Origin: Patescibacteria group bacterium
GTDB taxonomy: Bacteria; Patescibacteriota; Minisyncoccia; Phycocordibacterales; XYD1-FULL-46-19
Length of the DNA: 64,000 bases
Reading direction: 5' to 3'
NCBI GenBank assembly: GCA_022705505.1
Contig: JAKJEI010000001.1
Coordinates: 8,157-72,156 of the forward strand
The translations under genes and the position numbers were made by a program. Positions 26,914-54,087 of the stretch are shown here, one piece after another. How positions within the stretch are numbered: the first letter of the stretch is position 1; the number at the start of each line of letters is the position of its first letter. Under the pieces are notes generated by a model. The model did no database searches and was not told where the DNA came from. It was given only the letters and a program-made list of their open reading frames with translations.

Positions 26914-28980
26914 GTGTCTAAAAATGTTTTCCAATTGAAATCTAAACTTAAACCGGCCGGGGACCAGCCCAAGGCAATTTTGGCGCTCAACAAAGGTCTG
27001 ACCAAAGAGTTGGGCCATCAAACTCTTTTGGGGGTAACTGGTTCAGGCAAAACTTTTACGATGGCCAATGTGATTGCCGCCCAAGATAAACCGGTTTTGG
27101 TCATTGCTCACAACAAGACTCTGGCGGCTCAGTTAGCGCAAGAGTACCGCGATTTTTTCCCCGATAACGCGGTTCATTATTTTGTTTCTTACTACGATTA
27201 CTATCAACCCGAAGCTTATGTTGTCGCGTCTGATACTTATATTGAAAAAGACGCCAGTATTAACGAAGAAATTGAACGTTTGCGTCATGCTTCAACGCAA
27301 GCTTTGCTCACCCGCCGTGATGTGGTTATTGTCGCCTCGGTCTCTTGTATCTATGGCTTGGGGAGTCCAAGTGAATATGCCAAAAGTCACCTCTTTTTTA
27401 AACGAGGTGACCAATTGTCCCGGAGCGACCTAATCCGCCGTTTAGTGGAGATTTATTATGAACGAACAAATGCCGACCTCTTGCCGGGACAATTCCGCGC
27501 GATTGGCAATTCGGTGGAAGTTATGCCACCGGGTGAGAGAGCGATTGTGAATATTAAAATTGAAGGAGACAAGGTGACGGAAATAATCATTTTGGACGCC
27601 GTCAGTCGCGCCATTGTTCGTGAATCTAAAGAAACTTTCTTTTTTCCAGCCAAACACTTTATTACGCAAGAAGATGAACGGAATCGGGCAATTATTTCTA
27701 TTAAAGCAGAATTAGAAAAACGCTTGGTTGAGTTAAACAAAGAGGGTAAAATCTTGGAAGCAGAAAGATTAAAGCGCCGAACCAATTATGACCTCGCAAC
27801 GATTCGGGAGGTTGGCTATTGCAACGGAATTGAAAATTATTCACGTCATCTTTCTGGCCGCGCTGCTGGCGAGGCGCCGGCCACGCTCTTGGATTATTTC
27901 CCGCGCCAAAAAGATGGCTCGCCTGACTTTTTGACGATTATTGACGAGTCGCACGTGACCGTGCCGCAAATTCGCGGAATGTATGCCGGCGATGAAAGTC
28001 GCAAAAAAACCTTGGTTGAGCACGGTTTCCGATTGCCGAGCGCTTTGGACAATCGTCCGCTTAAATTCCCGGAGTTCCAAGAAAGGATTGGCCAGGTGAT
28101 TTATACAAGCGCGACGCCAAGCGAATATGAAATAAGCGAAAGCCGACAAGCGGCGCAAGAAGCCGGTTTAAAGCCGGAGCTTGGTATCGTGGAACAAATT
28201 ATCCGCCCGACCGGCTTGCTTGACCCGATGATAGAAATTCGGCCAGTCAAGGCCTCAAGTTCTAAAAAAGCCCAAGCTTACGGCGGTCAAGTTGCCGATT
28301 TTATTGTTGAGGCAGAAAAAGAAATTAAAGCTGGCAATCGAGTAATTGCTACAACCCTAACAAAAAAAATGGCAGAGGATCTGTCACAGTTTTTGAGAGA
28401 GAAAAAAGTAAAATCGGAATATTTGCACAGCGAGGTAAAAACTTTGGAGCGGATTAAGATTTTAACCGATTTTCGCAAGGGCAAGTTTGATTGTTTGGTC
28501 GGGGTCAATCTTTTACGGGAAGGTCTAGACTTGCCGGAGGTGACCTTTATTGGCATTTTGGATGCTGACAAAGAGGGTTTTTTGCGCTCGGAAGTTTCTT
28601 TGATTCAGACGATTGGTCGAGCGGCGCGAAACGTAGACGGCCGAGTAATTCTTTACGCGGAGGTAATCACAGGTTCTATGCAAAAAGCGATAGACGAAAC
28701 TAATCGGCGACGAGCCCTGCAAATTGCCTATAACAAAAAACATCAGATTACTCCTCAATCAATTCAAAAAAAGATTAATGACATTACGGAAACTTTGGAA
28801 AGCGAGCGGGCAAGGACAGTCGGTGAAATGCTTACGGTGGACAGCAAGCTGTTTGGCGGTAATTTAAAGAAGGTGATAAAGGAAAAAGTAAAACAGTTGA
28901 ACGAAGCGGTGAAAGAGCTTGATTTTGAGACCGCGGCGATTATCAGGGACGAAATAAGAGCTCTGGAACAGAAGGCTTAG
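26914..28980 (+). CDS. uvrB: excinuclease ABC subunit B
   Basis: GTG start. MSKNVFQLKSKLKPAGDQPKAI...LLGVTGSGKTFTMANVIA. Confidence 0.95.
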   Translation: MSKNVFQLKSKLKPAGDQPKAILALNKGLTKELGHQTLLGVTGSGKTFTMANVIAAQDKPVLVIAHNKTLAAQLAQEYRDFFPDNAVHYFVSYYDYYQPEAYVVASDTYIEKDASINEEIERLRHASTQALLTRRDVVIVASVSCIYGLGSPSEYAKSHLFFKRGDQLSRSDLIRRLVEIYYERTNADLLPGQFRAIGNSVEVMPPGERAIVNIKIEGDKVTEIIILDAVSRAIVRESKETFFFPAKHFITQEDERNRAIISIKAELEKRLVELNKEGKILEAERLKRRTNYDLATIREVGYCNGIENYSRHLSGRAAGEAPATLLDYFPRQKDGSPDFLTIIDESHVTVPQIRGMYAGDESRKKTLVEHGFRLPSALDNRPLKFPEFQERIGQVIYTSATPSEYEISESRQAAQEAGLKPELGIVEQIIRPTGLLDPMIEIRPVKASSSKKAQAYGGQVADFIVEAEKEIKAGNRVIATTLTKKMAEDLSQFLREKKVKSEYLHSEVKTLERIKILTDFRKGKFDCLVGVNLLREGLDLPEVTFIGILDADKEGFLRSEVSLIQTIGRAARNVDGRVILYAEVITGSMQKAIDETNRRRALQIAYNKKHQITPQSIQKKINDITETLESERARTVGEMLTVDSKLFGGNLKKVIKEKVKQLNEAVKELDFETAAIIRDEIRALEQKA

Positions 28981-29249: not shown

Positions 29250-31904
29250 ATGGAAGACAAAATAAAAATTAAAGGCGCGAGGACGCATAATCTAAAAAAT
29301 ATCAACCTGGAAATCCCGCGAAACAAACTCGTGGTTTTTACCGGACTGTCGGGCTCCGGCAAGTCATCGTTGGCTTTTGATACGATTTTTGCTGAAGGTC
29401 AGCGGCGTTATGTGGAATCGCTGTCAGCTTACGCCAGGCAATTTTTAAAACAGTTGCCTAAACCGGAAGTAGAGGAAATATCTGGTTTGTCGCCGGCAAT
29501 CTCTATTGACCAAAAATCTCGTTCACACAACCCGCGTTCCACGGTGGCAACCATTACCGAAATCTACGACTATTTGCGCGTTCTCTACGCGCGAATTGGC
29601 CATCCCTATTGTCCGGTTTGCGGCACTAAAATAGAAAAATTATCCAACGAAGAAATTGGCAATTTTATCAGAGATGAAATCTCTAAACATTCCACTGCGA
29701 GCGCGGTGGAAATTTACGCGCCAGTTATTCGCGGCCGTAAAGGAGAATACTACCAATTGCTCTATGATTTGCTGGAAAAAGGTTACTCAGAAGTAAAAAT
29801 AGACGGCGCGCGTCACAAATTGCGCGAACGGATTGTGATGGCCAGGACCAAAAAGCATGATATTGACGTTTTGGTTGACGAAATTGAATTGGTGGGCTTC
29901 TTGAGTCAAAAATCAGAGTCAAAGTTAAAAAAAGAGGTGGATCGAGCGATAACAGAGGCAGCTAACGAGCGATTGTCAGAAGCCGTGGAACGGGCGATCA
30001 AAGAAGCCAATGGTTTGGTCAAAGTGATAATTGGAGGGGAAGAATTTTTGTTGTCGGCTAAATTTGCCTGCCCCAACGATGGTTTTTCTTTTCCAGAAAT
30101 AGAACCGCGTCTTTTTTCTTTTAACTCACCTTACGGCGCTTGCCCAGTCTGCCACGGTTTGGGGACCAAACACTTGTTCGGCAACGAACCTTGTCCAGAA
30201 TGTTTGGGCGCGCGTCTGCGGCGAGAGGCCCTTCATGTTTTCATTGGTTCAACCAAAGAAAAATCAATCAAACAAGCGGAAGATGGAAAAGTTAAAACGA
30301 AAATAGAGAGAACCGGACTAAACATTGTTCAACTGACCGCTTTGTCTATTCGTGAAGCGACAGAATTTTTTGCTTCCTTAAAATTGACCGCTAAAGAAAA
30401 AGCCATTTCTGAAGTTTTGTTGCGCGAAATTGAAGCGCGCTTGAAGTTTCTTAATGATGTCGGTTTGGATTATATCGCGCTTGACCGGCGGGCAGATACT
30501 CTTTCCGGCGGCGAGGCTCAGCGGATTCGTCTGGCCTCGCAGCTTGGCTCACGTTTGGTCGGCACTTTGTATGTTTTAGACGAACCGACGATCGGTTTGC
30601 ACGCGCGTGATAACGACAAATTAATCAAAACCTTGCTTGAGTTGCGCGACTTGGGCAACTCTATTTTGGTGGTGGAACATGATGAAGACACAATCTTTTC
30701 TTCTGATTATTTGGTGGATATTGGGCCGGGGGCTGGCGTGCACGGCGGGGAAATTATCACTTCCGGTTGGACGGAAAAACTTTTAACGGCCAAGAAAAAT
30801 AATTTTGGTTCGCTGACGGTGGATTATTTGCGCGGCGAAAAGGAGGTGCCTTTTCCGGCGAAGAGGCGGCAAAACGACAAGGGTTCAATCAAAATCTGGG
30901 GGGGCAATATTTTCAACATCAAAAATCTAAATGTGGATATCCCGCTTGGCCGAATGGTGGCGGTGACTGGAGTTTCCGGTTCTGGAAAGTCTTCTTTGGT
31001 TTACGAAATTTTGTATAAAAATTTGCAAGGTCGCTTGGAACGGCGTTATCGGACCAACGAGGTTTTTAGCTGCAAGGAATTTTCTGGTTCGGAACATTTG
31101 GGGCGAGTGATTATGGTTGACCAGTCACCGATTGGCCGCACTCCGCGTTCCAATCCGGCCACTTATACCGGCGCTTTTACTTTTATTCGCAATTTGTTTG
31201 CTTCTACTGCGTTGGCGAGAGCGCGGGGCTGGAGTCCGTCTCGTTTTTCTTTTAATGTCCAAGGTGGTCGTTGTGAAGCCTGTCAAGGCAATGGGGAAAT
31301 CGCGGTGGAAATGCACTTTTTGCCGACGATTTTTGTGCCTTGCGACGTTTGCGGCGGCAAGCGTTATGAGAAGGATACCTTGGAGGTGGAGTACAAGAAG
31401 AAAAATATTTACCAAGTGCTCAAGATGACAATTGAAGAAACACTCCTCTTTTTTAATGATATTCCAGCTATTTATGACCGTTTAAAAACTCTTAACGAAG
31501 TTGGTTTGGGTTATTTGGAATTGGGGCAACCAGCCAATACTCTTTCCGGCGGCGAGGCACAACGAGTTAAAATTTCGTCCGAACTTTATCGGCCACAAAC
31601 TGAACGGACCATTTATCTTTTAGACGAACCGACTATCGGGTTACATTATGAAGATGTAAAAAATTTAATAGAAATTTTGCAAAAGTTAGTAGAAAAGGGG
31701 AACACTGTTTTGGTCATTGAACATAATATGGAAGTGATTAAAAATGCCGATTACGTGATTGATATGGGGCCGGAAGGCGGCAACGGCGGTGGCCAGGTGG
31801 TCGCTGCCGGCACACCGGAAGAAGTGGCTTACGCCAGTGGCTCGCACACGGCCAAATATCTAAAACGAGCGTTGAACTTGAACAAGAGAGACAAAAAACA
31901 GTAG
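29250..31904 (+). CDS. uvrA: excinuclease ABC subunit A
   Basis: Two ABC modules with LSGGEAQR signatures and zinc-finger Cys clusters. Confidence 0.95.
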
Positions 31905-38471: not shown

Positions 38472-38542
38472 AACCAGATTCTAGCAGAGGGAAAACAAAC
38501 GTGCAATAATTGCCGCCCGGGAGTATAATAATTGATAATCTT

Positions 38543-39148
38543 ATGGTCTTGTCTTTATTTGTTTTAATTTTAATAATTATTGTCGTTTTATTAATTGTTT
38601 TTAATAATATGCAAAATAAAAACATTCTTAAATGGGCTTTGGTTATTGGCATTATCATCGTGCTTAACCTTTTCTTCCATTTTGCAACGCGGTTGGTTTA
38701 TAAAATTCCGGAGTATGAAGATTTTTGCCAATCAAAACAAGTAGAGATTCGCCCGGATACTGAGGAATCTTGCGTCGCCGAAGGTGGCGCTTGGATTACG
38801 CCGGCCAAAGAATATTATGAAGAAGCGCCGATGACTCCGCCGATCGGCGCCGAAAAAGCATATTGCGATCCCACTTACACTTGCCGCCAAGAGTTTGAAG
38901 ATGTCAGAGATGTCTATCAACGCAATGTCTTTGTTGTGATGGTTGTTCTTGGCCTCGTTTCTTTGATTCTTGGCTTTGCCCTGGCGGCCAATGAAGCTAT
39001 TTCGCTCGGTTTGTCTTATGGCGGTATTTTGTCGTTCATCATTGCCTCTATTCAATATTGGTCGGCCATGGATGATTATTTGCGGGTGATAATTCTGGCC
39101 TTGGCCTTGGCCATCTTGATTTACCTGGGATACCGGAAATTCAAATAA
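38543..39148 (+). CDS. integral membrane protein, hypothetical
   Basis: Hydrophobic N- and C-terminal helices around a Cys-containing soluble loop. The track ORF starts at a TTG at 38510; the ATG at 38543 is preferred. Confidence 0.5.
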   Translation: MVLSLFVLILIIIVVLLIVFNNMQNKNILKWALVIGIIIVLNLFFHFATRLVYKIPEYEDFCQSKQVEIRPDTEESCVAEGGAWITPAKEYYEEAPMTPPIGAEKAYCDPTYTCRQEFEDVRDVYQRNVFVVMVVLGLVSLILGFALAANEAISLGLSYGGILSFIIASIQYWSAMDDYLRVIILALALAILIYLGYRKFK

Positions 39149-39265: not shown

Positions 39266-42200
39266 ATGCCCTCAAAAAAACCCGCTGCCAAATCTCAAGC
39301 TTCAAGTAAGTATGACCATAAAAAGATAGAACCGAAATGGCAAAAAGTCTGGCGTCAGTCAGATATTTACCGCGTCAAGGAAGACAAGAAAAAAGACAAG
39401 GCTTATGTTTTGGACATGTTTCCGTATCCATCAGGCGAGGGTTTGCATGTTGGTCACCCCAAAGGCTATATCGCGACCGATATCTATTCTCGTTACAAAC
39501 GGATGAAGGGCTTTAATGTTTTGCATCCCATGGGCTGGGACGCTTTTGGTTTGCCCGCCGAAAATTATGCCATAAAAAATAAGATTCACCCCGAGACCGC
39601 TGTCAAAAAAAACATCAAACGTTTTAAGGAACAGTTGGAAATTATCGGTTTTGATTATGATTGGTCTCGCGAGATAAACACCACTGACCCCAAATACTAT
39701 AAATGGACTCAATGGATTTTTTTGCAATTGTGGCAAAAGGGCTTGGCTTATCAATCCTATGAACCGATTAACTGGTGTCCGTCTTGCAAAACCGGTTTAG
39801 CTAATGAGGATTTGGAGGATGGTAAGTGTGAGCGTTGCGGTTCAGAGGTGGAAAAGAAGCCAATGCGTCAGTGGGTGCTCAAAATTACCGATTATGCCGA
39901 ACGTTTGTTAGAGGATTTGGAAGACTTGGCCTGGCCTGAATCAATCAAAGAGTCCCAACGCAACTGGATTGGCCGAAGTGAGGGCATAGAAATAGATTTT
40001 GAACTTAAAACCAAGAAGCTGAGATATGTTTTTTTGCACGGTTTTAAGAGCGGACCGAATCGTTGTTGGTTCCCATGGCTTAAACGTGAACTGGAAAAAC
40101 GCGGGCACGAGGTAGTGGTGCCGGCCCTGCCAAACCCTTTTTTGCCGGATGTCGTCAACCAGACGGAATTTGTGCTGGAAAATGTTTCTTTTGACGAAAA
40201 CACGGTTTTGGTTGGGCATAGTTTGGGGACAGTTGTCGGCTTGCGTGTTTTGGAACGTCTCAAGAAACCAATTAAAAAATTTGTGGCAGTTTCTGGTTTG
40301 GTGGAACCAAAGTTCAAAGACAAAGACCGCCCGGCTGCCGCTTTTTTGATAAATTGGGACTTTGATTTTGCCAAAATTAAAAAAAATGCCGGCGACGTTG
40401 TTATTTTGGAAGACCAGACTGACTATTTGATAAATCAAAATCAAGGAGAAAATCTGGAGGCCAAGCTGAATGGCCGACTAGTTCGCTTTGAAGCGAAAAG
40501 AACTCATACTTGCGGTACGGTGGAGCCAGTGGTGCTAGAAAATGTTTTGGATACGGTGAAAGTTTTTACGACGCGCGCCGATACGCTTTTTGGCGCCACT
40601 TACGTGGTCTTGGCGCCGGAGCATAATTTTGTTCAGAAAAATTTGTCAAAGTTTGACAACAAATCAGAAATCCAAAAGTATCAAAAACAAGCCACTAAAC
40701 AAAGCGAGATAGCCCGCATCGCGGAAACCAAAGAAAAAACCGGTGTTCAATTGAAAGGCGCGGTCGCGGTTAACCCGGCCAATGGCCGTGAAGTCCCTGT
40801 TTTTATCGCTGACTATGTTTTGCCGGATTACGGCACCGGCGCGGTGATGGCGGTACCGGCGCATGATGAGCGTGATTTCGCCTTTGCCAAGAAATATAAA
40901 CTGCCAATTATTCAGAGTATTGCCAAGAAGAACGCGCCAATCAAAAGTTACCTCATGGGCGCAAACCAGATTTCTGATGGTGAATTGGAAGAAGTTGGCG
41001 CCAAGATTTACGAAAAGAAGCCGGACGGCGACCGTCTCTTGGTTTTATCAGCAAAAAAGTTGCCAGCCTACGAAAAATTGATCAGCGAAAAAATGACCGC
41101 TGGCTATTGGAATGAATATGTGGGCAAGGAAATTGTTTTTCTTTTTAAGGATAAAAAAGATCGGGTGACCAAGATTGTTTTGACACCGGAAACTGCGGAG
41201 GAGGTTGATAAGTTGGCAAATGAATTTTCTGCAGACAAAAAAAGAAAATTTGTTTCGCCTTGGACCTGGCTGGCGGAAAATGATTGGTATAAAGATTTAA
41301 TTATCCATACTGAAGCGGGTGTTTTGGTTAATGCCGGTAAAAAATTCACCGGTCTTTCAAGCGAGAAAGCCAAGTTGGCGGTTTCGCGCTATGTGCGAGG
41401 CAAACAAGTTGTTAAATACAAACTTCGTGACTGGGTCTTTTCGCGTCAACGTTATTGGGGCGAGCCAATCCCGGTTGTTCATTGCGACAAATGCGGAGTC
41501 GTGCCGGTGCCGGAAGACAAGCTGCCGGTCAAGTTGCCGAAGGTCAAAAGTTATGCCCCAACCGACACGGGCGAATCACCTTTGGTCGATATTGAAAAAT
41601 GGGTCAAAACCAAATGTCCGGCTTGCAGCGGACCGGCTAAACGCGAAACCAACACAATGCCGCAATGGGCGGGTTCTTCTTGGTATTATTTGCGTTATCT
41701 GGACCCGAAGAATGAGACTGCTTTGGTTAGCCAAGACAAAGAAAAATATTGGCAAGAAGTTGATGTCTATGTCGGTGGAACCGAGCATGCCACTAGACAT
41801 TTGATCTATGCGCGTTTTTGGCACAAGTTTTTGTATGACCTCGGTGTGGTGAGCCGACCGGAACCTTTTGCCAAACTCAAGAACCAAGGTTTGATTTCCG
41901 GGAGTGACGGCCGCAAAATGTCTAAGCGTTGGGGAAACGTGGTTAACCCTGACGATGTCGTAAAATCTTACGGCGCCGATAGTTTGCGTGTCTATGAAAT
42001 GTTTATGGGCCCATTTGAAGCCGGCGCTTCTTGGCAAACTGAAAATATGATTGGCGCGCGTCGTTTTCTGGAAAAAGTTTGGCAGTTGTCGAAAAAAGTG
42101 GAATCTCAGAAAGGCGACAGCCTGCTGGTTGTTCAAGTCCACGAGACAATCAAAAAAGTTGGCAAGGATATCACGGACTTTGCCTTCAATACCGCTATTT

Positions 42201-42586
42201 CTGCCTTGATGATTTTGGTCAACGAGTTAGAAAAACAGCCGACAGTCAGTCGAACTGATTTTGAGAATTTACTTAAGCTTTTGGCGCCGTTTGCCCCGCA
42301 CTTGTCTGAAGAATTATGGTCACAGTTAGGGCACAAAACCTCTATTCATTTGGCGCCGTGGCCGACCTATGACGCTCAAAAGACCGTCAAGCAAGAGCTC
42401 AAAATTATGATACAAGTAAATAGCAAAATAAGAGACAAAATTGTTGTGCCAGCGAGCGCTAGTGAAGAAGAAATTCTCAAGCAGGCTCGGGCAAGCGCCG
42501 GCGCGAAGCGATGGCTTGAAGGGCAGACAATTAAAAAAGCTTTTTATGTGAAAGGCCGTCTAGTTAATTTTGTAACCAATAAGTAG
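39266..42586 (+). CDS. leuS: leucyl-tRNA synthetase with an inserted alpha/beta-hydrolase-like module
   Basis: HIGH-region (PYPSGEGLHVGHPKGY), CP1 editing motifs (TTRADTLFGATY, PAHDERDFAFAKKY), and KMSKR near RKMSKRWGN. At 1106 aa it is about 250 aa longer than usual. Confidence 0.95.
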   Translation: MPSKKPAAKSQASSKYDHKKIEPKWQKVWRQSDIYRVKEDKKKDKAYVLDMFPYPSGEGLHVGHPKGYIATDIYSRYKRMKGFNVLHPMGWDAFGLPAENYAIKNKIHPETAVKKNIKRFKEQLEIIGFDYDWSREINTTDPKYYKWTQWIFLQLWQKGLAYQSYEPINWCPSCKTGLANEDLEDGKCERCGSEVEKKPMRQWVLKITDYAERLLEDLEDLAWPESIKESQRNWIGRSEGIEIDFELKTKKLRYVFLHGFKSGPNRCWFPWLKRELEKRGHEVVVPALPNPFLPDVVNQTEFVLENVSFDENTVLVGHSLGTVVGLRVLERLKKPIKKFVAVSGLVEPKFKDKDRPAAAFLINWDFDFAKIKKNAGDVVILEDQTDYLINQNQGENLEAKLNGRLVRFEAKRTHTCGTVEPVVLENVLDTVKVFTTRADTLFGATYVVLAPEHNFVQKNLSKFDNKSEIQKYQKQATKQSEIARIAETKEKTGVQLKGAVAVNPANGREVPVFIADYVLPDYGTGAVMAVPAHDERDFAFAKKYKLPIIQSIAKKNAPIKSYLMGANQISDGELEEVGAKIYEKKPDGDRLLVLSAKKLPAYEKLISEKMTAGYWNEYVGKEIVFLFKDKKDRVTKIVLTPETAEEVDKLANEFSADKKRKFVSPWTWLAENDWYKDLIIHTEAGVLVNAGKKFTGLSSEKAKLAVSRYVRGKQVVKYKLRDWVFSRQRYWGEPIPVVHCDKCGVVPVPEDKLPVKLPKVKSYAPTDTGESPLVDIEKWVKTKCPACSGPAKRETNTMPQWAGSSWYYLRYLDPKNETALVSQDKEKYWQEVDVYVGGTEHATRHLIYARFWHKFLYDLGVVSRPEPFAKLKNQGLISGSDGRKMSKRWGNVVNPDDVVKSYGADSLRVYEMFMGPFEAGASWQTENMIGARRFLEKVWQLSKKVESQKGDSLLVVQVHETIKKVGKDITDFAFNTAISALMILVNELEKQPTVSRTDFENLLKLLAPFAPHLSEELWSQLGHKTSIHLAPWPTYDAQKTVKQELKIMIQVNSKIRDKIVVPASASEEEILKQARASAGAKRWLEGQTIKKAFYVKGRLVNFVTNK

Positions 42587-43850: not shown

Positions 43851-45107
43851 ATGGTTTTTATTTTAAACCTGATAGGGAACTTTTTTAGCCAGACTTGGTA
43901 TTGGATTTCTTTGGCCCTGCCTTTTACGGTCTATTTTTTGCCGTTCGTTTTGGCCTATGCTCTTTGGGAGTCTTATTTGGCTTTTATTCGCGAACGATAC
44001 ATAAACAAGGAAGAACGTATTTTGCTGGAAGTCAAAATTCCGAAAGAGATTAGCAAATCGCCGGCCGCGATGGAGCTTCTCATGCATGTTTTTTACCAAA
44101 CTTATGAAGGCGAGCTGGTAGACCAATACATCAAGGGCACTGTTCGTTCTTGGTTTTCGTTGGAGTTAGCCTCTTTTGGCGGCGAAATCCATTTCTATTT
44201 CAATATTCCGAAGTTTTTCAAAGACTTGGTAGAAGCGCAAATTTATTCTCAGTATTCCGAAGTGGAAATTTTTGAAGTTGACGATTACACGCAACAAGTA
44301 AACTTTGGCCAACCGGATTCGCCGTGGGAAATTTTCGGCTGGGAGTGGAAATTTGCCAAAGCTGATATTTACCCAATCAAAACTTATTATGATTTTGGTT
44401 TGGAAAAAGATCCCAAAGAAGAATACAAAGTTGACCCGATGACGCCCCTTATGGAATTTTTGGGCTCTATCAGACAAGACGAACAAGTTTGGTTTCAGTT
44501 TTTGGTCATGGGCGGCAAAGATCGTTTCCCAATCAAAAATAAAAAAGCAAAATGGTATAATTTCTTTTCAAAGGTAGAAATGAAGGGTTGGAAAGATGCT
44601 TCTCAAGAGGAGTTACAAAAAATTCTAAAACGTGAAGAAAAAGGCGATGATATTGCTTCCTTTGTAAAGTTGACAATGTCGCCCGGCGAGCGCCTTTTGG
44701 CTGAATCAATAGAAAGACACTTGGCCAAACTTTGTTTTGACGTTGGCATTCGCGCCGTTTACGCTTCTAAAGAAGGCATCCGCCCGATTGTCAAAGTCGG
44801 CGTTGGCAACAGCATAAAACAATTCGGTTCGCCCGGCATGAATGGTTTTAAGGTGGCGGCTACCACGAGCTATAACCAACCGTGGGAAGATTACAAGGGG
44901 ATTAGAGCCAGACGTTTGAAAAAACTGATGTTTAAATATTTTCGTGAACGCGCCTATTTCTATCCGCCAGCCAGCAAAAAACCAATGGTGATGACGACTG
45001 AAGAATTGGCAACACTCTACCACTTCCCAGGCCAAGCAGTTACTACTCCATCGCTGTCGCGTATCCCGTCCAAACGAGGTGAACCGCCAGTTAACCTGCC
45101 ATTATAG
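43851..45107 (+). CDS. hypothetical protein with N-terminal TM helices
   Basis: 418 aa with no recognisable motifs. Confidence 0.5.
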   Translation: MVFILNLIGNFFSQTWYWISLALPFTVYFLPFVLAYALWESYLAFIRERYINKEERILLEVKIPKEISKSPAAMELLMHVFYQTYEGELVDQYIKGTVRSWFSLELASFGGEIHFYFNIPKFFKDLVEAQIYSQYSEVEIFEVDDYTQQVNFGQPDSPWEIFGWEWKFAKADIYPIKTYYDFGLEKDPKEEYKVDPMTPLMEFLGSIRQDEQVWFQFLVMGGKDRFPIKNKKAKWYNFFSKVEMKGWKDASQEELQKILKREEKGDDIASFVKLTMSPGERLLAESIERHLAKLCFDVGIRAVYASKEGIRPIVKVGVGNSIKQFGSPGMNGFKVAATTSYNQPWEDYKGIRARRLKKLMFKYFRERAYFYPPASKKPMVMTTEELATLYHFPGQAVTTPSLSRIPSKRGEPPVNLPL

Positions 45108-48685: not shown

Positions 48686-50596
48686 ATGATTTCTGAAGAA
48701 ATTCGTCAAAAATTTTTGACTTTTTTTGAAAAAAGGGGACACAAAATAATCCCCTCGGCCTCTCTGGTGCCGGCTGATTATGGCGACGAAGGCACCCTTT
48801 TTACCACGGCCGGTATGCAACCCTTGATTCCTTATCTCTTGGGTCGACCTCACCCGGCCGGCGCTCGCTTGGTTGATGTTCAAAAATGCGTTCGAACGGG
48901 CGACATTGAAGACGTTGGCGACAACCGCCACCTGACTTTTTTTGAAATGATGGGTAACTGGTCAATCGGTGACTCCACCGCAGAAAACGGAATTGGGGCA
49001 GGTTACTTCAAGCAAGAATCTATTAATTGGAGCCTTGAATTTTTAACAAGCAAAGAAGAGGGTCTAGGCTTGGACCCCAAGCGTTTTTATGTGACAATTT
49101 TTCGGGGCGAAGATGGCCTGCCGCGCGATGAAGAAGCGATCAAAATTTGGCAGGCGGCTTTTGCTCAAGCTGGTTTGGAAGCGAACATTGCCGGCGAAGA
49201 CGAAGTGGTTGGGGAAAACATCAGAATCATCCCGCTTGGCAAAGAGGACAATTTCTGGATTGCCGGCGCTACCGGTCCATGCGGCGGCGACACGGAGATT
49301 TTTTATGACACTCGTCCGACAGATGGCCCGCTTGTTGGAAAGTTCGGTGAAATGGTGGATTCTTTCCGTCTGATTGAAGTCTGGAACAACGTTTTTATGG
49401 AATATGAAAAAATGCCGGATGGCAGTTACAAACCGCTCAAACAAAAAAACGTTGATACCGGCATGGGGTTGGAGAGGACAACCGCCGTCTTGAATAATGT
49501 TGGTGTTTTCCAGACTGATATTTTTGCTCCGATTTTGGCTGAAATCACCGCTCACAGCAATCAAGACGACGAGCAGGCCAAACGGATTATTGCCGACCAT
49601 CTTCGCACGGCTGTCTTTATGTTGGCCTCCGGTGTGGGGCCAGCCAATACTGACCGCGGCTACATCTTGCGCCGGATTATTAGGCGTTTGGTGCGTTACA
49701 GCGACAAGATTGGCGCGACCGATAACCTTAGCGAGAAATTGGTGGATTTGGTGGTGGCTAAGTATGAAAATTTTTATCCGGAACTAGCCACCGAAAAAGA
49801 TAAAATAATTGTTGAGCTTAAAAAAGAAGAGGAAAAGTTCCGTCAAACTTTAGCGGCGGGCATTAAAATTATTGACAAAGAATTTGCCGGAAAACTAAAT
49901 GAAGTCATTGACACCGCAGAAAATATGACTAGCCCGTTGTTGACTGGCGAATTTTTCTTCAACCTCTATCAAACTTACGGCATTCCGCTTGAACTTGGTT
50001 TGGAAGAGGTCAAAAATCGCGGTTTGAAATTAGTAAAAGGAATAGAGGAAAAATTAAAAACAGAATTTGGCGACCGTTTGCAAAAACACCAAGAATTATC
50101 ACGCGCCGGCGCTGACCAAAAGTTCAAAGGCGGCTTGGCCAGTGAAAGCAAACAAGTAGTCAGATACCATACCGCCACCCACCTCCTACAGGCTGCTTTA
50201 AAAGAAGTTTTGGGGCCGGAAGTGGCGCAAAGGGGCAGCAACATTACAGATGAACGGTTACGTTTTGACTTTGCTTATCCGGCCAAATTGACAGATGACC
50301 AAAAAAACGCAGTTGAAAATTTGGTTAATGAAAAAATCAAAGCTGATTTGCCAATGAACCGCGTGGAATTGCCAAAGACTGAGGCCGAAAAAACTGGCGC
50401 GACTCACCTTTTTGGTGAAAAATACGGCGAGACCGTCACAGTTTATTACACCGGCGATGATGTCGCTTCCGCTTGGTCCAAAGAATTTTGCGGGGGACCG
50501 CATGTTTCGCGCACTGGTGAATTAGGTCATTTTAAAATTAAAAAAGAAGAAGCTATAGCGGCCGGTGTTCGACGGATAAAGGCAGTTTTGGAATAA
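48686..50596 (+). CDS. alaS: alanyl-tRNA synthetase, short form without the C-terminal C-Ala domain
   Basis: Class II catalytic core (FTTAGMQPLIPYLLG...FFEMMGNWSIGD) and editing domain (HTATHLLQAALKEVLG, CGGPHV). Confidence 0.9.
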   Translation: MISEEIRQKFLTFFEKRGHKIIPSASLVPADYGDEGTLFTTAGMQPLIPYLLGRPHPAGARLVDVQKCVRTGDIEDVGDNRHLTFFEMMGNWSIGDSTAENGIGAGYFKQESINWSLEFLTSKEEGLGLDPKRFYVTIFRGEDGLPRDEEAIKIWQAAFAQAGLEANIAGEDEVVGENIRIIPLGKEDNFWIAGATGPCGGDTEIFYDTRPTDGPLVGKFGEMVDSFRLIEVWNNVFMEYEKMPDGSYKPLKQKNVDTGMGLERTTAVLNNVGVFQTDIFAPILAEITAHSNQDDEQAKRIIADHLRTAVFMLASGVGPANTDRGYILRRIIRRLVRYSDKIGATDNLSEKLVDLVVAKYENFYPELATEKDKIIVELKKEEEKFRQTLAAGIKIIDKEFAGKLNEVIDTAENMTSPLLTGEFFFNLYQTYGIPLELGLEEVKNRGLKLVKGIEEKLKTEFGDRLQKHQELSRAGADQKFKGGLASESKQVVRYHTATHLLQAALKEVLGPEVAQRGSNITDERLRFDFAYPAKLTDDQKNAVENLVNEKIKADLPMNRVELPKTEAEKTGATHLFGEKYGETVTVYYTGDDVASAWSKEFCGGPHVSRTGELGHFKIKKEEAIAAGVRRIKAVLE

Positions 50597-51558: not shown

Positions 51559-54087
51559 GTGTCTTTCTTATCACGCAAAAAAGGAGAAGGCGATTTAGTG
51601 GCGTTGATTGACATTGGCAGCAATCAAATCAGCGGCGCGATTTTTCGGACTGGCCAAAAAAACAAAACGAGCATCTCTTCCAGCATTTTGTTCTTTACGC
51701 AAACAGAATTATCGCCCCAAAGGTCTATCGCTTTTAAAGATTATCTCAAGGAAGCAAGCCAAGCCTTGGAAAAGGTTTTAAAGGCGCTAAAAGCAAGTCA
51801 CCATAAGCCGCAGGCTGTTTTTTGCTTTTTATCATCACCTTACTTTATAACCAGAACCAAAGACATAGTTTGGCGGTCGGAACAAAAAGCGCCCATTACA
51901 ACCAAGAAAATAGGGGAACTTAGCGTTGGGTCAGCCAAAGATTTTGCCGACAAACACCCTTCGCTTTATCCGGAAATTCTAAATGACCGAACTATTATTA
52001 TTGAAAATGAAATAATGTCGGTTGTTCTTGACGGTTACAAAGGCGACAACCTAACCAGGGGGGTGGCCGGCAAGGTGGAGATTAGCCAATATGTTAGTCT
52101 TGGCTCAGAGACTCTTTTGGGTTATTTCAAAAATATGGTGGCTAGTTTTTTTCCGCAAGCGCCCGTCAAATTCCAGACCTTTACCTTTGCCGCTTATAGT
52201 GTCTTCAAAGATTTAATGACCGGTGAAAAAGATTTTTTCCTGATAGATGCGGCCGGCGATATCACAGATATTTTGGTGGTCAACGACGGCGTTTTGGCCG
52301 AACATAGGTCTTTTCCTTTTGGCCGCCGACAAATTTTGAAAAAATTAGCTGAATTTTCGGGCACGGTTCCGGCCGAGGCCGAGTCATTGCTGAAGTTGCT
52401 GACAGAAAGTAAAACAAGTCAATCTGCCAACGCGCGCGTCACCGGCGCGCTGGAAAAAATTTTTATCCACTGGTCAACTTTGTTCAAAAACACTATCAGC
52501 CAAATTGCCGAAACAGTTTTTATTCCATCGCGCGTTTATCTGATTGGTTACGATAGCTCAGATTTATTGTTGGCTGATTGGATAAAAAGAATTGAGTTGT
52601 CCAAGTTTTTGTTATCATCCGAAAACTACCTCTCGGTTGGCCTTATTGATAAAAAGTTGCTTACTTATGAACCGATAAACAGCCTCGGACAAGTTACCAA
52701 CACCTTTATTTTGGCTGAAGCGCTGTTTTGTGATAAGCTGTATAAAAATCCAAATAGCTTTTATTTTATTAATTCATTAAAAAACATGCAGGATATTGTC
52801 AAAAACAAAAAAAGTCTTCGTGAAATTTTCCCAGAAGTTGGCGCGTCAAAGATGAAGTCAGGAATAACCAACACACCACCACCGACCTCTTCCCTTTCCT
52901 CTCGCACCAACCCCAGCCCTCGCCGCCGCTTTCGTTTTGCCGGTTGGCTAGTCTTATTGGTTGTTTTGTTGATTGTTGGTGTTGGAGGGTTTGTTTTGTC
53001 CAATGTTTTTGCCAGAGCAATTGTAAATATTCAACCTAAACAAGGACAATTGGATGTTTCCGGCACTCACGTAGCGACTAGAGAAGGTGATGAGGGCTTG
53101 AAATTTGTTTTGGCTGAAGATGTAGAAGAAGTGGATACGGCGACGGTGGCTGCCTCCGGTAGTGAAAAAGTAGAAATCAAAGCTAGCGGCCGAATTGTCA
53201 TTATCAACAAGGATAGTTCCACTAGCCAGACCTTGGTGGAAAAAACCCGTTTCCAAGCGCCCAATGGCAATATTTACCGGATTGCCGAATCAGTAACCGT
53301 GCCGGGCACTCACAAGAATGAAAAGGGCGAGACCGTGCCGGGACAGTTGGAAGTAACGGTTTATGCCGACAAAGCCGGCTCGGCTTATAACTTGGGACTA
53401 GCAGACTTCACTATCCCCGGTTTTGCCAAAACCCCTAAATTTGAAAAAATTACCGCCAAATCAAAGACTCCCATCAGTGGCGGGTTTATCGGCGAGAGGC
53501 CAAAAATTTCAGAAGCCGATATGGCCAACTTAGAGGAATCAATGAGCGGCAGCCTGCAAGCTAAAGTTATCGAGAAAATTAAACAACAAGTGCCCGAGGA
53601 CTATGTTCTTTTTGATGACGCGGTTTTGACCCGATTTTCTACCGAAATTGCCACCTCATCGGAAAGCGGTTCAGACAAAGTGGTCGTCAGGGGCAAAGTA
53701 ACCGCCACCGGTATTCTTTTTAACCGCGCTGACCTAAGCCAATACTTGGCCAAAGCAATCCCCGGCTGGACCGGCGAGGACAAGGTTGATATTGCGAACA
53801 TGGAAAATCTTGGTTTTACTTTGTTGGACAAAGAAAACCTTAACCCTGAAAGTCTGACTTCTATTTCCTTTAATCTGCAAGGAATCGCTCATGTTGTTTG
53901 GCAATTTGACGAGAATGCCCTCAAAGACGACCTGCAAAAAGCTGATAAAGACGACTATAACGACGTTTTTGAATCCTATCCTGAAATTCAAAAGGCGGTA
54001 ATTGTTTTCCGCCCGGGGTGGGTTCGCTCTGTGTCCCAAAATGACGCCAAAATTGAGATAAAAATAGAAGAAAAAGCTTTTGAATAG
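51559..54087 (+). CDS. large hypothetical protein: N-terminal actin-like ATPase fold (PilM/FtsA-like), Pro/Ser linker, TM helix, ~370 aa extracytoplasmic domain
   Basis: ALIDIGSNQISGAIF...FLIDAAGDITDILVVNDGVL..FPFGRRQ match actin-fold phosphate motifs. The linker is NTPPPTSSLSSRTNPSPRRR and the TM segment WLVLLVVLLIVGVGGFVL. The start is uncertain (GTG). Confidence 0.5.
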   Translation: MSFLSRKKGEGDLVALIDIGSNQISGAIFRTGQKNKTSISSSILFFTQTELSPQRSIAFKDYLKEASQALEKVLKALKASHHKPQAVFCFLSSPYFITRTKDIVWRSEQKAPITTKKIGELSVGSAKDFADKHPSLYPEILNDRTIIIENEIMSVVLDGYKGDNLTRGVAGKVEISQYVSLGSETLLGYFKNMVASFFPQAPVKFQTFTFAAYSVFKDLMTGEKDFFLIDAAGDITDILVVNDGVLAEHRSFPFGRRQILKKLAEFSGTVPAEAESLLKLLTESKTSQSANARVTGALEKIFIHWSTLFKNTISQIAETVFIPSRVYLIGYDSSDLLLADWIKRIELSKFLLSSENYLSVGLIDKKLLTYEPINSLGQVTNTFILAEALFCDKLYKNPNSFYFINSLKNMQDIVKNKKSLREIFPEVGASKMKSGITNTPPPTSSLSSRTNPSPRRRFRFAGWLVLLVVLLIVGVGGFVLSNVFARAIVNIQPKQGQLDVSGTHVATREGDEGLKFVLAEDVEEVDTATVAASGSEKVEIKASGRIVIINKDSSTSQTLVEKTRFQAPNGNIYRIAESVTVPGTHKNEKGETVPGQLEVTVYADKAGSAYNLGLADFTIPGFAKTPKFEKITAKSKTPISGGFIGERPKISEADMANLEESMSGSLQAKVIEKIKQQVPEDYVLFDDAVLTRFSTEIATSSESGSDKVVVRGKVTATGILFNRADLSQYLAKAIPGWTGEDKVDIANMENLGFTLLDKENLNPESLTSISFNLQGIAHVVWQFDENALKDDLQKADKDDYNDVFESYPEIQKAVIVFRPGWVRSVSQNDAKIEIKIEEKAFE

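What the first reader, a model, noticed from the sequence alone, without database searches (positions are those of the whole stretch)
40016..40525. Alpha/beta-hydrolase-like module inserted into leucyl-tRNA synthetase at the entrance of the CP1 editing domain
LeuS here is 1106 aa. Between the conserved RNWIGRSEGIEIDF segment and the CP1 entry motif VFTTRADTLFGATY there are about 170 extra residues (roughly aa 251-420). That segment reads like a small serine hydrolase of the RBBP9/YdeN type: YVFLHGFKSGPNRCWFPWL at its start, a nucleophile elbow GHSLG, and candidate Asp (DVVILED) and His (RTHTCG) residues in triad order. The canonical CP1 editing residues (TTRxDT, HDxRD) appear intact, so the module is additional rather than a replacement. 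An esterase fold fused next to a site that hydrolyses aminoacyl-tRNA esters is a plausible extra proofreading or deacylase module. It could equally be an unrelated moonlighting domain.
Basis: partly seen in the sequence, partly recalled or inferred. Interest (0 to 1): 0.7.

Follow-up and report, generated by a model that had tools for sequence, protein, structure and literature searches.

The report
Serine hydrolase domain nested inside LeuRS
A complete, apparently active small serine-hydrolase enzyme sits inside a surface loop of the leucyl-tRNA synthetase of an ultra-small (Patescibacteria/CPR) bacterium; the same module is nested in hundreds of related LeuRS genes and in several unrelated essential proteins, so it looks like a self-contained passenger enzyme, not a new proofreading site.

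Summary
The LeuS ORF (39266-42586, 1106 aa) carries a ~177-aa insertion (aa 254-430). It lies exactly between T. thermophilus LeuRS residues 242 and 243, in the hairpin just before the CP1 TTRxDT motif.

The insert passes Pfam thresholds for Ser_hydrolase/Abhydrolase. It matches B. subtilis YdeN (E=3.5e-12) and human RBBP9 (E=1e-8). AlphaFold models it as a separate alpha/beta domain (pLDDT 85-97).

In 102 LeuRS-embedded copies (median pairwise identity 39%), Ser319 and His414 are invariant. An acid at 386 is present in 100, the HG oxyanion motif in 100-102 and Asp383 in 98. CP1 editing residues, HIGH and KMSK(R) are intact.

The editing interpretation is weakened:
- The module also occurs free-standing.
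- It is nested in SecA, TsaD, AlaRS, EngA, UvrA, UvrB, Fmt and peptidase M1, and fused at the end of an amidase.
- It sits at a second LeuRS site in some relatives.
- It shares its site with NUDIX or PD-(D/E)XK domains in others.
- It was lost at least four times in the LeuRS tree.

Best reading: an autonomous, catalytically competent YdeN/RBBP9-type hydrolase parked in a permissive loop. I found no publication describing it. It is a new variant of a known kind.

The parts
39266..42586 (+). leuS ORF, 1106 aa, bacterial-type leucyl-tRNA synthetase and host of the insertions
   Evidence: ORF list. TIGR00396 997 bits against a cut-off of 548. PDB LeuRS hits at E about 1e-208. AF2 full-length model has mean pLDDT 89.4. 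Foldseek top hits are all LeuRS.
39446..39457 (+). HIGH-type signature (HVGH, aa 61-64) of the synthetic site
   Evidence: H61, G63 and H64 are invariant in the 92-sequence alignment.
40025..40555 (+). Insertion 1: nested YdeN/RBBP9-type serine hydrolase domain (aa 254-430)
   Evidence: Boundaries come from the alignment to T. thermophilus LeuRS 242/243 and from insert-less relatives such as P0153. Pfam PF06821, PF00561 and PF12697 are above cut-off. YdeN E=3.5e-12. In the AF2 model the 10-residue blocks have pLDDT 85-97, with alternating beta/alpha elements.
40037..40042 (+). His258-Gly259, the HG oxyanion-hole motif after the first strand
   Evidence: H in 100/102 and G in 102/102 embedded modules; H in 42/44 and G in 42/44 free-standing homologues.
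40214..40228 (+). Nucleophile elbow G317-H-S319-L-G321
   Evidence: S319 in 102/102 and G321 in 102/102. Aligns with Ser of YdeN (VAHSLG) and Ser75 of RBBP9. Codons read.
40412..40423 (+). Acid loop D383-Q-T-D386. D386 is the canonical triad acid. D383 is an extra acid specific to the nested clade.
   Evidence: Position 386 is D in 61 and E in 39 of 102 embedded copies, and D in 44/44 free-standing ones. Position 383 is D in 98/102 embedded copies and S in 44/44 free-standing ones. D383 ends strand 375-383 and D386 lies in the following loop.
40505..40507 (+). His414, triad histidine
   Evidence: 102/102 embedded and 44/44 free-standing. Lies in the loop after strand 404-408.
40556..40948 (+). 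CP1 editing domain core (aa 431-561), with T-rich motif TTRADT (aa 435-440, nt 40568-40585) and HDERD (aa 533-537, nt 40862-40876)
   Evidence: PF13603, 183.8 bits. The editing residues are invariant in 92 sequences.
40949..41305 (+). Insertion 2 (aa 562-680): a second, independent ~119-aa module of unknown function between T. thermophilus residues 371 and 377
41915..41929 (+). KMSK(R) loop (aa 884-888). The leucine-specific domain that precedes it in most bacterial LeuRS is missing.
   Evidence: M885 and K887 are invariant. T. thermophilus residues 579-636 have no counterpart; the query has only aa 879-883 there.

Best explanation
The segment is a complete YdeN/RBBP9-family (Pfam PF06821) serine hydrolase domain. 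It is nested in frame in the loop of the beta-hairpin that leads into the CP1 editing domain of a Patescibacteria LeuRS.

It folds on its own as a minimal alpha/beta-hydrolase and carries a full catalytic set:
- Ser319 in a GHSLG elbow
- His414
- Asp386, with a clade-specific second acid, Asp383
- an HG258-259 oxyanion motif

It most likely works by the classical acyl-enzyme mechanism, as a second and autonomous active site on the synthetase polypeptide. LeuRS keeps its own synthetic and CP1 editing sites.

By analogy with RBBP9, the only characterised family member, the substrate is probably a small alpha-aminoacyl amide or ester. RBBP9 is an aminopeptidase that requires a free alpha-amine.

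The tie to LeuRS is architectural rather than mechanistic. This hydrolase subfamily (signature HG...Q...GHSLG...D..D/E...H..EP) is repeatedly found parked in permissive surface loops of large essential proteins of small-genome lineages (CPR bacteria, some DPANN archaea). LeuRS is by far its commonest host.

Shown by computation: the insertion, the homology, the fold prediction, residue conservation, intact host sites, multi-host distribution and repeated loss. Inferred: catalytic activity, substrate class, and that the fusion serves co-expression or retention of a housekeeping hydrolase rather than tRNA-Leu proofreading.
For: Homology:
- Pfam hits are above curated cut-offs.
- YdeN 1uxo E=3.5e-12 and RBBP9 E=1e-8.

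Fold:
- Independent domain with pLDDT 85-97 and beta-alpha alternation.

Selection on catalysis:
- Among 102 embedded modules with median pairwise identity 39%, S319 and H414 are 102/102, G259 is 102/102, H258 is 100/102, D/E386 is 100/102 and D383 is 98/102.
- The module is about as conserved as the anticodon-binding and C-terminal part of LeuRS (median 43% against 46% identity to the window).

Host sites intact:
- CP1 residues, HIGH and KMSK are invariant.

Host independence:
- The embedded-type module is nested in SecA, AlaRS, EngA, UvrA, Fmt and TsaD. The free-type is nested in UvrB and peptidase M1 and fused at the end of an amidase. Several of these were seen on multiple independent contigs.
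- Free-standing ~180-aa members exist, including one with most of the embedded-type signature (P0168, MBP7708583.1).
- In P0083, P0084 and P0089 the module sits after the Zn-knuckle CxxC instead of before CP1.
- PDDEXK_3 (P0088) or NUDIX (P0089) occupy the same hairpin loop in other LeuRS.
- Insert-less LeuRS (P0153/P0156, P0094, P0124, P0154) are scattered inside insert-bearing clades.

Breadth:
- At least 578 GTDB species genomes hold a relative. 52 of the best 80 loci lie in LeuRS-length ORFs.

Chemistry of the family:
- RBBP9 removes N-terminal aromatic residues, needs a free alpha-amine and forms an acyl-Ser75 intermediate (PMC8866121).
Against: - No activity data exist for any embedded copy.
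- The module is anchored fewer than 10 residues from the T-rich editing motif. LeuRS is overwhelmingly its commonest host, and it has been inserted into LeuRS at two different sites. This could reflect a real functional link with LeuRS or aminoacyl-tRNA.
- Several other hosts also handle aminoacyl or tRNA substrates (AlaRS, Fmt, TsaD, an amidase that may be GatA-like, peptidase M1).
- The embedded clade has systematic changes at positions invariant in free-standing relatives: W299 to Q, S383 to D, W268 to F, and an added E420. This suggests a changed specificity that I cannot interpret.
Confidence: 0.6

Rival explanations
1. Extra proofreading module. The hydrolase would cleave the aminoacyl ester of mischarged tRNA-Leu, or non-cognate aminoacyl-adenylate, as a third hydrolytic site beside CP1.
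For: - The insertion point is in the CP1 entry hairpin, a few residues before TTRADT.
- The family recognises alpha-aminoacyl groups with a free amine.
- The triad is invariant in LeuRS copies.
- The module is associated with LeuRS at two different sites.
- Other hosts include AlaRS, Fmt and TsaD.
Against: - The same clade is nested in SecA, UvrA and EngA, and the sister type in UvrB. None of these touch aminoacyl-tRNA.
- Free-standing copies exist.
- CP1 editing residues are fully intact, so there is no obvious gap to fill.
- The module was lost at least four times without loss of CP1.
- Unrelated NUDIX and PDDEXK_3 domains use the same loop.
- There is no excess positive charge relative to free-standing homologues that would suggest tRNA binding.
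- From my own knowledge, no alpha/beta-hydrolase is known as an aminoacyl-tRNA deacylase.
Confidence: 0.15
2. Amino-acid supply. The domain would be an aminopeptidase, like RBBP9, that releases N-terminal hydrophobic residues such as leucine from scavenged peptides next to the synthetase of an amino-acid auxotroph.
For: - RBBP9 aminopeptidase activity.
- A relative of the module is nested in an M1 aminopeptidase, P0238.
- CPR organisms generally lack amino-acid biosynthesis (my own knowledge).
Against: - No evidence on specificity. Pocket residues differ from those of the free-standing family.
- Hosts such as UvrA, UvrB, SecA and EngA give no reason for channelling.
- Free diffusion of leucine makes tethering of doubtful benefit.
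Confidence: 0.12
3. Inactive structural spacer or pseudoenzyme that only modulates CP1 movement or provides an interaction surface.
For: The hairpin and linkers between the synthetic and editing domains matter for LeuRS activity in other species (PMC4138327, title and abstract seen).
Against: - Every catalytic position is kept in 98-100% of 102 copies while the rest of the domain has drifted to about 39% identity. A pseudoenzyme would be expected to lose them.
- The module was lost repeatedly without replacement.
Confidence: 0.08
4. Artefact: a chimeric assembly or mis-called fusion of a neighbouring hydrolase gene with leuS.
For: Metagenome-derived sequence.
Against: - The insert is in frame, with LeuRS sequence on both sides.
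- The identical protein was recovered from three samples.
- More than 100 clusters and 52 GTDB species show the same junction spacing.
- Base composition is uniform.
- There are no flanking repeats beyond chance-length matches.
Confidence: 0.01

Closest known systems
B. subtilis YdeN (PDB 1uxo) and human RBBP9 (PDB 2qs9, 7oex), Pfam PF06821 Ser_hydrolase
   Same: About 180-aa minimal alpha/beta-hydrolase with an HG oxyanion motif, a GHSxG elbow and Ser-Asp-His order. Direct sequence homology: E=3.5e-12 and 1e-8. RBBP9 is a serine aminopeptidase that needs a free alpha-amine.
   Different: Those proteins are free-standing; here the domain is nested inside another enzyme. The nested clade differs at positions invariant in free-standing relatives: Gln for Trp at 299, Asp for Ser at 383, usually Phe for Trp at 268, and a conserved C-terminal Glu-Pro. 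RBBP9's amine-binding Glu108 has no strictly conserved counterpart. D/E347 and D352 are only partly conserved.
CP1 editing domain of LeuRS/IleRS/ValRS, itself a domain nested in the Rossmann fold
   Same: A hydrolytic domain inserted into the synthetase through two antiparallel strands. It is present and intact in this protein.
   Different: Unrelated fold and chemistry: a threonine-rich pocket with no serine nucleophile or acyl-enzyme. The new module is an insertion within the CP1 insertion.
Free-standing trans-editing factors (AlaX/tRNA_SAD, YbaK/ProXp, DTD)
   Same: The concept of an additional hydrolase that clears aminoacyl esters.
   Different: Different folds. The insert gives no sequence match to them. 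No evidence here that the insert acts on tRNA.
Synthetases carrying extra enzymatic domains, e.g. NCBIfam NF040702 'isoleucine--tRNA ligase, N-acetyltransferase domain-containing' (listed), and LysRS-MprF fusions (LysX; my own knowledge)
   Same: A second enzyme on an aaRS polypeptide.
   Different: Different partner domains and, as far as I know, terminal fusions rather than insertions nested in CP1. In LysX the partner uses the aminoacyl-tRNA product, which is not shown here.
Inteins, which are insertions in conserved essential proteins
   Same: A similar host range: essential proteins, many of them ATP- or GTP-binding (aaRS, SecA, UvrA, UvrB, GTPase).
   Different: No Hint domain, no conserved junction nucleophiles or His-Asn, and junction residues vary between hosts. 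The module is presumably retained in the mature protein.

Membership tests
PF06821 Ser_hydrolase (YdeN/RBBP9) within the alpha/beta-hydrolase superfamily | Sequence match to the family model above the curated threshold | tested here: met
   The excised segment scores 29.2 bits against a cut-off of 22. Also Abhydrolase_1 32.8 (25.8) and Abhydrolase_6 30.6 (26.3). phmmer to YdeN gives E=3.5e-12 over 150 residues.
PF06821 Ser_hydrolase (YdeN/RBBP9) within the alpha/beta-hydrolase superfamily | Nucleophile elbow G-x-S-x-G at the end of a strand, aligned with the family's serine | tested here: met
   GHSLG at 317-321 follows strand 313-318. It aligns to YdeN VAHSLG and to RBBP9 Ser75. Ser is present in 102/102 embedded copies.
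PF06821 Ser_hydrolase (YdeN/RBBP9) within the alpha/beta-hydrolase superfamily | Acid and histidine in the order Ser-Asp-His, on loops after the last strands | tested here: met
   D386 aligns with the invariant Asp of 44 free-standing homologues, and H414 with their invariant His. Both lie on loops after strands 375-383 and 404-408.
PF06821 Ser_hydrolase (YdeN/RBBP9) within the alpha/beta-hydrolase superfamily | Alpha/beta-hydrolase three-dimensional fold with the triad in catalytic geometry | tested here: inconclusive
   The AF2 secondary-structure order and high pLDDT fit the fold.
PF06821 Ser_hydrolase (YdeN/RBBP9) within the alpha/beta-hydrolase superfamily | Hydrolytic activity dependent on the serine | not testable with these tools
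   Needs enzyme assays or activity-based probes.
Bacterial leucyl-tRNA synthetase (TIGR00396), the host protein | Full-length model match above cut-off, HIGH and KMSKS signatures, CP1 with T-rich and HDxRD motifs | tested here: met
   997 bits against 548. H61, G63, H64, M885 and K887 are invariant, as are T435, T436, R437, D439, T440, H533, D534, R536 and D537. The leucine-specific domain is absent; this domain is variable, not defining (PMC3643597, seen).
Known aaRS editing or trans-editing domains (CP1, tRNA_SAD/AlaX, YbaK, DTD), tested for the insert | Homology of the insert to one of these hydrolytic editing folds | tested here: not met
   Pfam and NCBIfam scans of the insert return only alpha/beta-hydrolase families.
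Known aaRS editing or trans-editing domains (CP1, tRNA_SAD/AlaX, YbaK, DTD), tested for the insert | Deacylation of mischarged tRNA | not testable with these tools
   Requires biochemical assay.
Inteins (Hint domain) | Hint fold; N-terminal Cys/Ser/Thr; C-terminal His-Asn followed by a nucleophile | tested here: not met
   No Hint family in the Pfam scan. Junctions in LeuRS, SecA, TsaD, AlaRS, EngA, UvrA, UvrB and Fmt share no such residues.

The most novel reading that the evidence does not exclude
This hydrolase subfamily, together with NUDIX, HAD and PD-(D/E)XK modules seen at neighbouring LeuRS loops, would be a class of passenger enzyme domains. These domains would repeatedly colonise surface loops of essential, highly conserved proteins (LeuRS, AlaRS, SecA, UvrA, UvrB, EngA, TsaD, Fmt) in ultra-small-genome bacteria and archaea. 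Their host range resembles that of inteins, but they do not splice and they keep their own catalytic site. They would persist because excision from an essential gene is hard, or because tethering to an abundant protein is advantageous.
Probability: 0.25. Interest if true: 0.8.

Novelty: new variant of a known kind. Interest (0 to 1): 0.62.

Why it matters
Aminoacyl-tRNA synthetases are among the best-studied enzymes. A bacterial LeuRS carrying a second, apparently active serine-hydrolase site would interest that field. Relatives also carry NUDIX, HAD or nuclease-like domains, across hundreds of uncultured species.

The finding bears on three matters:
- It is a natural catalogue of permissive insertion sites around CP1 and the zinc knuckles, which is useful for engineering.
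- It shows how extremely reduced genomes (CPR, DPANN) package housekeeping enzymes, and that such architectures cross the bacteria/archaea boundary.
- It gives a cheap experiment (S319A, with or without a CP1 mutant, in deacylation and esterase assays) that would decide whether a new type of editing site exists.

It also warns annotators. Some of these LeuRS are named 'alpha/beta fold hydrolase' in public records.

Tried and rejected
- **Homologue search with the insert alone.** It returned only free-standing ~185-aa proteins and seemed to show the fusion was unique. This was an effect of the word-index prefilter; the full-length search found more than 100 LeuRS with the insert.
- **Whole-model Foldseek against PDB.** It gave only LeuRS hits and said nothing about the insert.
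- **Model coordinates.** They are not exposed, so Ser-His-Asp distances and the pocket's position relative to CP1 and tRNA could not be measured.
- **Gene neighbourhoods of four free-standing homologues.** No conserved context. One lies in a cluster with NUDIX, His_Phos and Exo_endo_phos genes. One lies next to two class-Ib synthetase genes. Two have unrelated neighbours.
- **Net charge of embedded against free-standing modules.** -0.1 against -1.3 per 100 aa, within the scatter. No sign of an RNA-binding surface.
- **Intein-like or transposon-like origin.** No conserved junction residues. Only chance-length repeats around the insert.
- **Insertion 2 as a degenerate NUDIX.** hhalign probability 0.8%. 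Rejected.
- **Insertion 2 fold.** Only generic ferredoxin-like similarity.
- **The search for related loci with a 21-sequence alignment.** It failed because no conserved stretch was found. A 6-sequence alignment worked.
- **afdb50 library.** Unavailable.
- **Seven literature searches.** None found a description of this architecture. An eighth failed on term syntax.
Full report
**1. The observation**

The window carries one long ORF at 39266-42586 (+) of 1106 aa. It is a bacterial-type LeuRS: TIGR00396 gives 997 bits against a cut-off of 548, and the best PDB sequence hits are T. thermophilus, N. gonorrhoeae and E. coli LeuRS.

The alignment to T. thermophilus LeuRS is broken in two places. Query 14-253 pairs with residues 2-242 and query 431-561 with residues 243-371. 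So 177 residues (aa 254-430, nt ~40025-40555) are inserted without loss of a single host residue. Query 681-878 pairs with residues 377-578, so a second block of about 119 residues (aa 562-680) is also extra.

Its coordinates are correct at the start and about 10 residues short at the end.

**2. What the insert is**

The excised segment passes Pfam's curated thresholds for Abhydrolase_1, Abhydrolase_6 and Ser_hydrolase PF06821. It matches B. subtilis YdeN (1uxo, E=3.5e-12) and human RBBP9 (E=1e-8) directly.

A full-length AlphaFold2 model built on a 92-sequence alignment has mean pLDDT 89.4. The insert is the best-predicted part (10-residue block means 85-97). It shows the alternating strand/helix order of a minimal alpha/beta-hydrolase, bracketed by host strands 237-247 and 430-435. 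The module therefore replaces the loop of the hairpin that leads into the T-rich editing motif (TTRADT, aa 435-440).

**3. Is it a live enzyme?**

The full-length search found more than 100 LeuRS clusters with the same insertion. The spacing from NWIG to FTTR is about 200 aa in these, against 25-38 aa in insert-less LeuRS.

In the 102 embedded hydrolase modules, which are only 39% identical pairwise at the median, conservation is as follows:

| Position | Conserved in |
|---|---|
| Ser319 | 102/102 |
| His414 | 102/102 |
| Gly259 | 102/102 |
| His258 | 100/102 |
| Gly321 | 102/102 |
| Asp or Glu at 386 | 100/102 |
| Asp383 | 98/102 |

In 44 free-standing homologues position 386 is always Asp and position 383 is always Ser. 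The canonical triad acid is therefore Asp386.

The module is about as conserved as the anticodon-binding and C-terminal part of LeuRS (median 43% against 46% identity to the window). This pattern indicates purifying selection on catalysis.

**4. The host is intact**

The CP1 residues T435, T436, R437, D439, T440, H533, D534, R536 and D537 are invariant across 92 LeuRS with or without the insert. So are the HIGH and KMSK signatures. The module is an addition, not a replacement.

**5. Distribution**

The identical protein was assembled from three separate metagenome samples.

A scan of one genome per GTDB species found at least 578 genomes with a relative. Of the best 80 loci:
- 52 lie inside LeuRS-length ORFs with the FTTR motif about 180 aa downstream. 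Their genomes are labelled Paceibacterota, Vogel-, Taylor-, Uhr- and Doudnabacteria and so on.
- 28 are free-standing ~190-aa genes.

Some LeuRS-embedded loci are in genomes labelled Pacearchaeota or Woesearchaeota. One of them, L019, has an archaeal-type tRNA-intron endonuclease next door.

**6. The evidence that changes the interpretation**

A profile-free search of 1.84 billion cluster representatives gave 1862 hits at E<=1e-3, 547 at E<=1e-10 and 33 at E<=1e-30. Of the best 150, 60 are at least 260 aa long, and 16 of those have no LeuRS flanks.

Pfam scans of ten of them show the same module nested in other hosts:

| Protein | Host | Module position |
|---|---|---|
| P0192 | SecA | not recorded |
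| P0214 | TsaD | aa 204-345 |
| P0230 | AlaRS | aa 417-534 |
| P0240 | EngA | between the two GTPase domains |
| P0261 | UvrA | not recorded |
| P0277 | UvrB | aa 441-609 |
| P0278 | Fmt | not recorded |
| P0238 | M1 aminopeptidase | not recorded |
| P0253 | an amidase | fused at the C-terminal end |

Several of these were seen on multiple independent contigs.

A signature at eleven positions separates two types:
- An embedded type, HG-F-Q-S-D-x-D/E-H-E-P, occurs in LeuRS, SecA, AlaRS, UvrA, EngA, Fmt and a few ~180-aa proteins such as MBP7708583.1.
- A free type, HG-W-W-S-S-D-D-H, occurs in most free-standing copies and in the UvrB, M1 and amidase fusions.

Within LeuRS itself the arrangement also varies:
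- P0083, P0084 and P0089 carry the module after the CxxC zinc knuckle instead of before CP1.
- P0088 has a PDDEXK_3 domain and P0089 a NUDIX domain in the very loop used here.
- P0134 has two hydrolase modules in tandem.
- P0107 and P0150 add NUDIX and HAD domains at further loops.

On a neighbour-joining tree of the LeuRS core, insert-less enzymes (P0153/P0156, P0094, P0124, P0154) fall at four separate places inside insert-bearing clades. This suggests an old insertion and repeated clean loss.

**7. Mechanism**

The most economical reading is an autonomous serine hydrolase that works by the usual acyl-enzyme route. It occupies a permissive loop of an essential, constitutively expressed protein.

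The only characterised family member, RBBP9, is an aminopeptidase. It requires a free alpha-amine and forms an aminoacyl-Ser intermediate (PMC8866121). An alpha-aminoacyl amide or ester is therefore the best guess for the substrate class.

That chemistry keeps the editing hypothesis conceivable. So do the position next to CP1 and the tRNA- or aminoacyl-related nature of several other hosts. But hosts such as SecA, UvrA, UvrB and EngA, the free-standing copies, the intact CP1, the repeated losses and the sharing of the site with unrelated domains all argue that the link to LeuRS is architectural. I put about 0.6 on the passenger-enzyme reading and about 0.15 on a true proofreading role.

**8. 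Checks that gave nothing**

- Neighbourhoods of free-standing homologues show no conserved context.
- There is no charge difference suggestive of RNA binding.
- There are no intein-like junction residues and no meaningful flanking repeats.
- Base composition is uniform across the insert.

**9. Comparison and novelty**

Membership of PF06821 is met at the sequence and motif level. Fold geometry and activity are untested. The insert is not a member of any known editing-domain family, and it is not an intein.

Extra enzymatic domains on synthetases are known; one example is NCBIfam's IleRS with a GNAT domain, listed. The hydrolase family is also known. What appears undescribed is a catalytically intact alpha/beta-hydrolase nested inside the CP1 insertion of LeuRS and conserved across hundreds of CPR species. 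It is part of a wider habit of this module to nest in essential proteins. Seven full-text searches found no description. I class it as a new variant of a known kind.

**10. Insertion 2**

This second module (aa 562-680) is independent of insertion 1. It is present alone in P0094 and P0124 and absent from P0059 and P0070. It has a divergent variant in P0056 and P0063. In many relatives a NUDIX domain occupies the same site.

Noticed in passing
[not shown]
   Followed up: partly
window ~41900-41930 (LeuRS aa 879-888): This LeuRS lacks the leucine-specific domain. T. thermophilus residues 579-636 have no counterpart, and only 'ISGSDGR' precedes KMSKR. This resembles the short GKDG linker reported for Mycoplasma mobile LeuRS (PMC3643597).
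   Followed up: no
Relatives P0071, P0088, P0089, P0107, P0134, P0150, P0155: LeuRS of this lineage acts as a scaffold for nested enzyme domains. NUDIX occurs at site 1, at site 2 or in tandem. PDDEXK_3 (PF13366) occurs at site 1. HAD_2 occurs after the second zinc motif. Tandem Ser_hydrolase modules also occur. Protein lengths reach 1564 aa.
   Followed up: partly
P0192, P0214, P0230, P0238, P0240, P0253, P0261, P0277, P0278: The same hydrolase module is nested in SecA, TsaD, AlaRS, peptidase M1, EngA, UvrA, UvrB and Fmt, and is fused at the end of an amidase. Two sequence signatures distinguish an embedded type from a free type.
   Followed up: partly
L017, L019, L022, L024 and other loci: A bacterial-type LeuRS with the hydrolase insert occurs in genomes labelled DPANN archaea (Pacearchaeota, Woesearchaeota). 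L019 has an archaeal tRNA-intron endonuclease gene next to it. This suggests cross-domain transfer of the whole decorated gene, or mis-binning.
   Followed up: partly
L001 5103-7089 (free-standing homologue P0003): The free-standing hydrolase sits in a same-strand cluster: Exo_endo_phos, NUDIX, Nuc_deoxyrib_tr-like, Ser_hydrolase, His_Phos_1. This echoes the hydrolase + NUDIX + phosphatase (HAD) combinations nested in LeuRS. Three other neighbourhoods did not repeat it.
   Followed up: partly
P0070 versus P0071: These two LeuRS are identical over the N-terminal ~450 aa and the C-terminal half. They differ in the middle of CP1 and in the presence of a NUDIX cassette. They are labelled Vogelbacteria and Woesebacteria respectively. 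This could be a recombination mosaic or an assembly chimera.
   Followed up: no
window 48686-50596: The AlaRS is only 636 aa (catalytic domain plus tRNA_SAD) and carries no nested module. The window's UvrA (29250-31904) and UvrB (26914-28980) also lack the hydrolase module that some relatives carry.
   Followed up: partly
window 51559-54087, 43851-45107 and 38510-39148: An 842-aa ORF and a 212-aa ORF have no Pfam match at E<=1e-5. The 418-aa ORF also gave no hit in that scan, but it carries a precomputed DUF8128 hit (PF26449) on the identical contigs.
   Followed up: no
window 39892-40374 (-) and 39941-40444 (-): Two antisense ORFs of 160 and 167 aa overlap the insert. They lie entirely inside the conserved leuS reading frame and are most likely spurious.
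   Followed up: no
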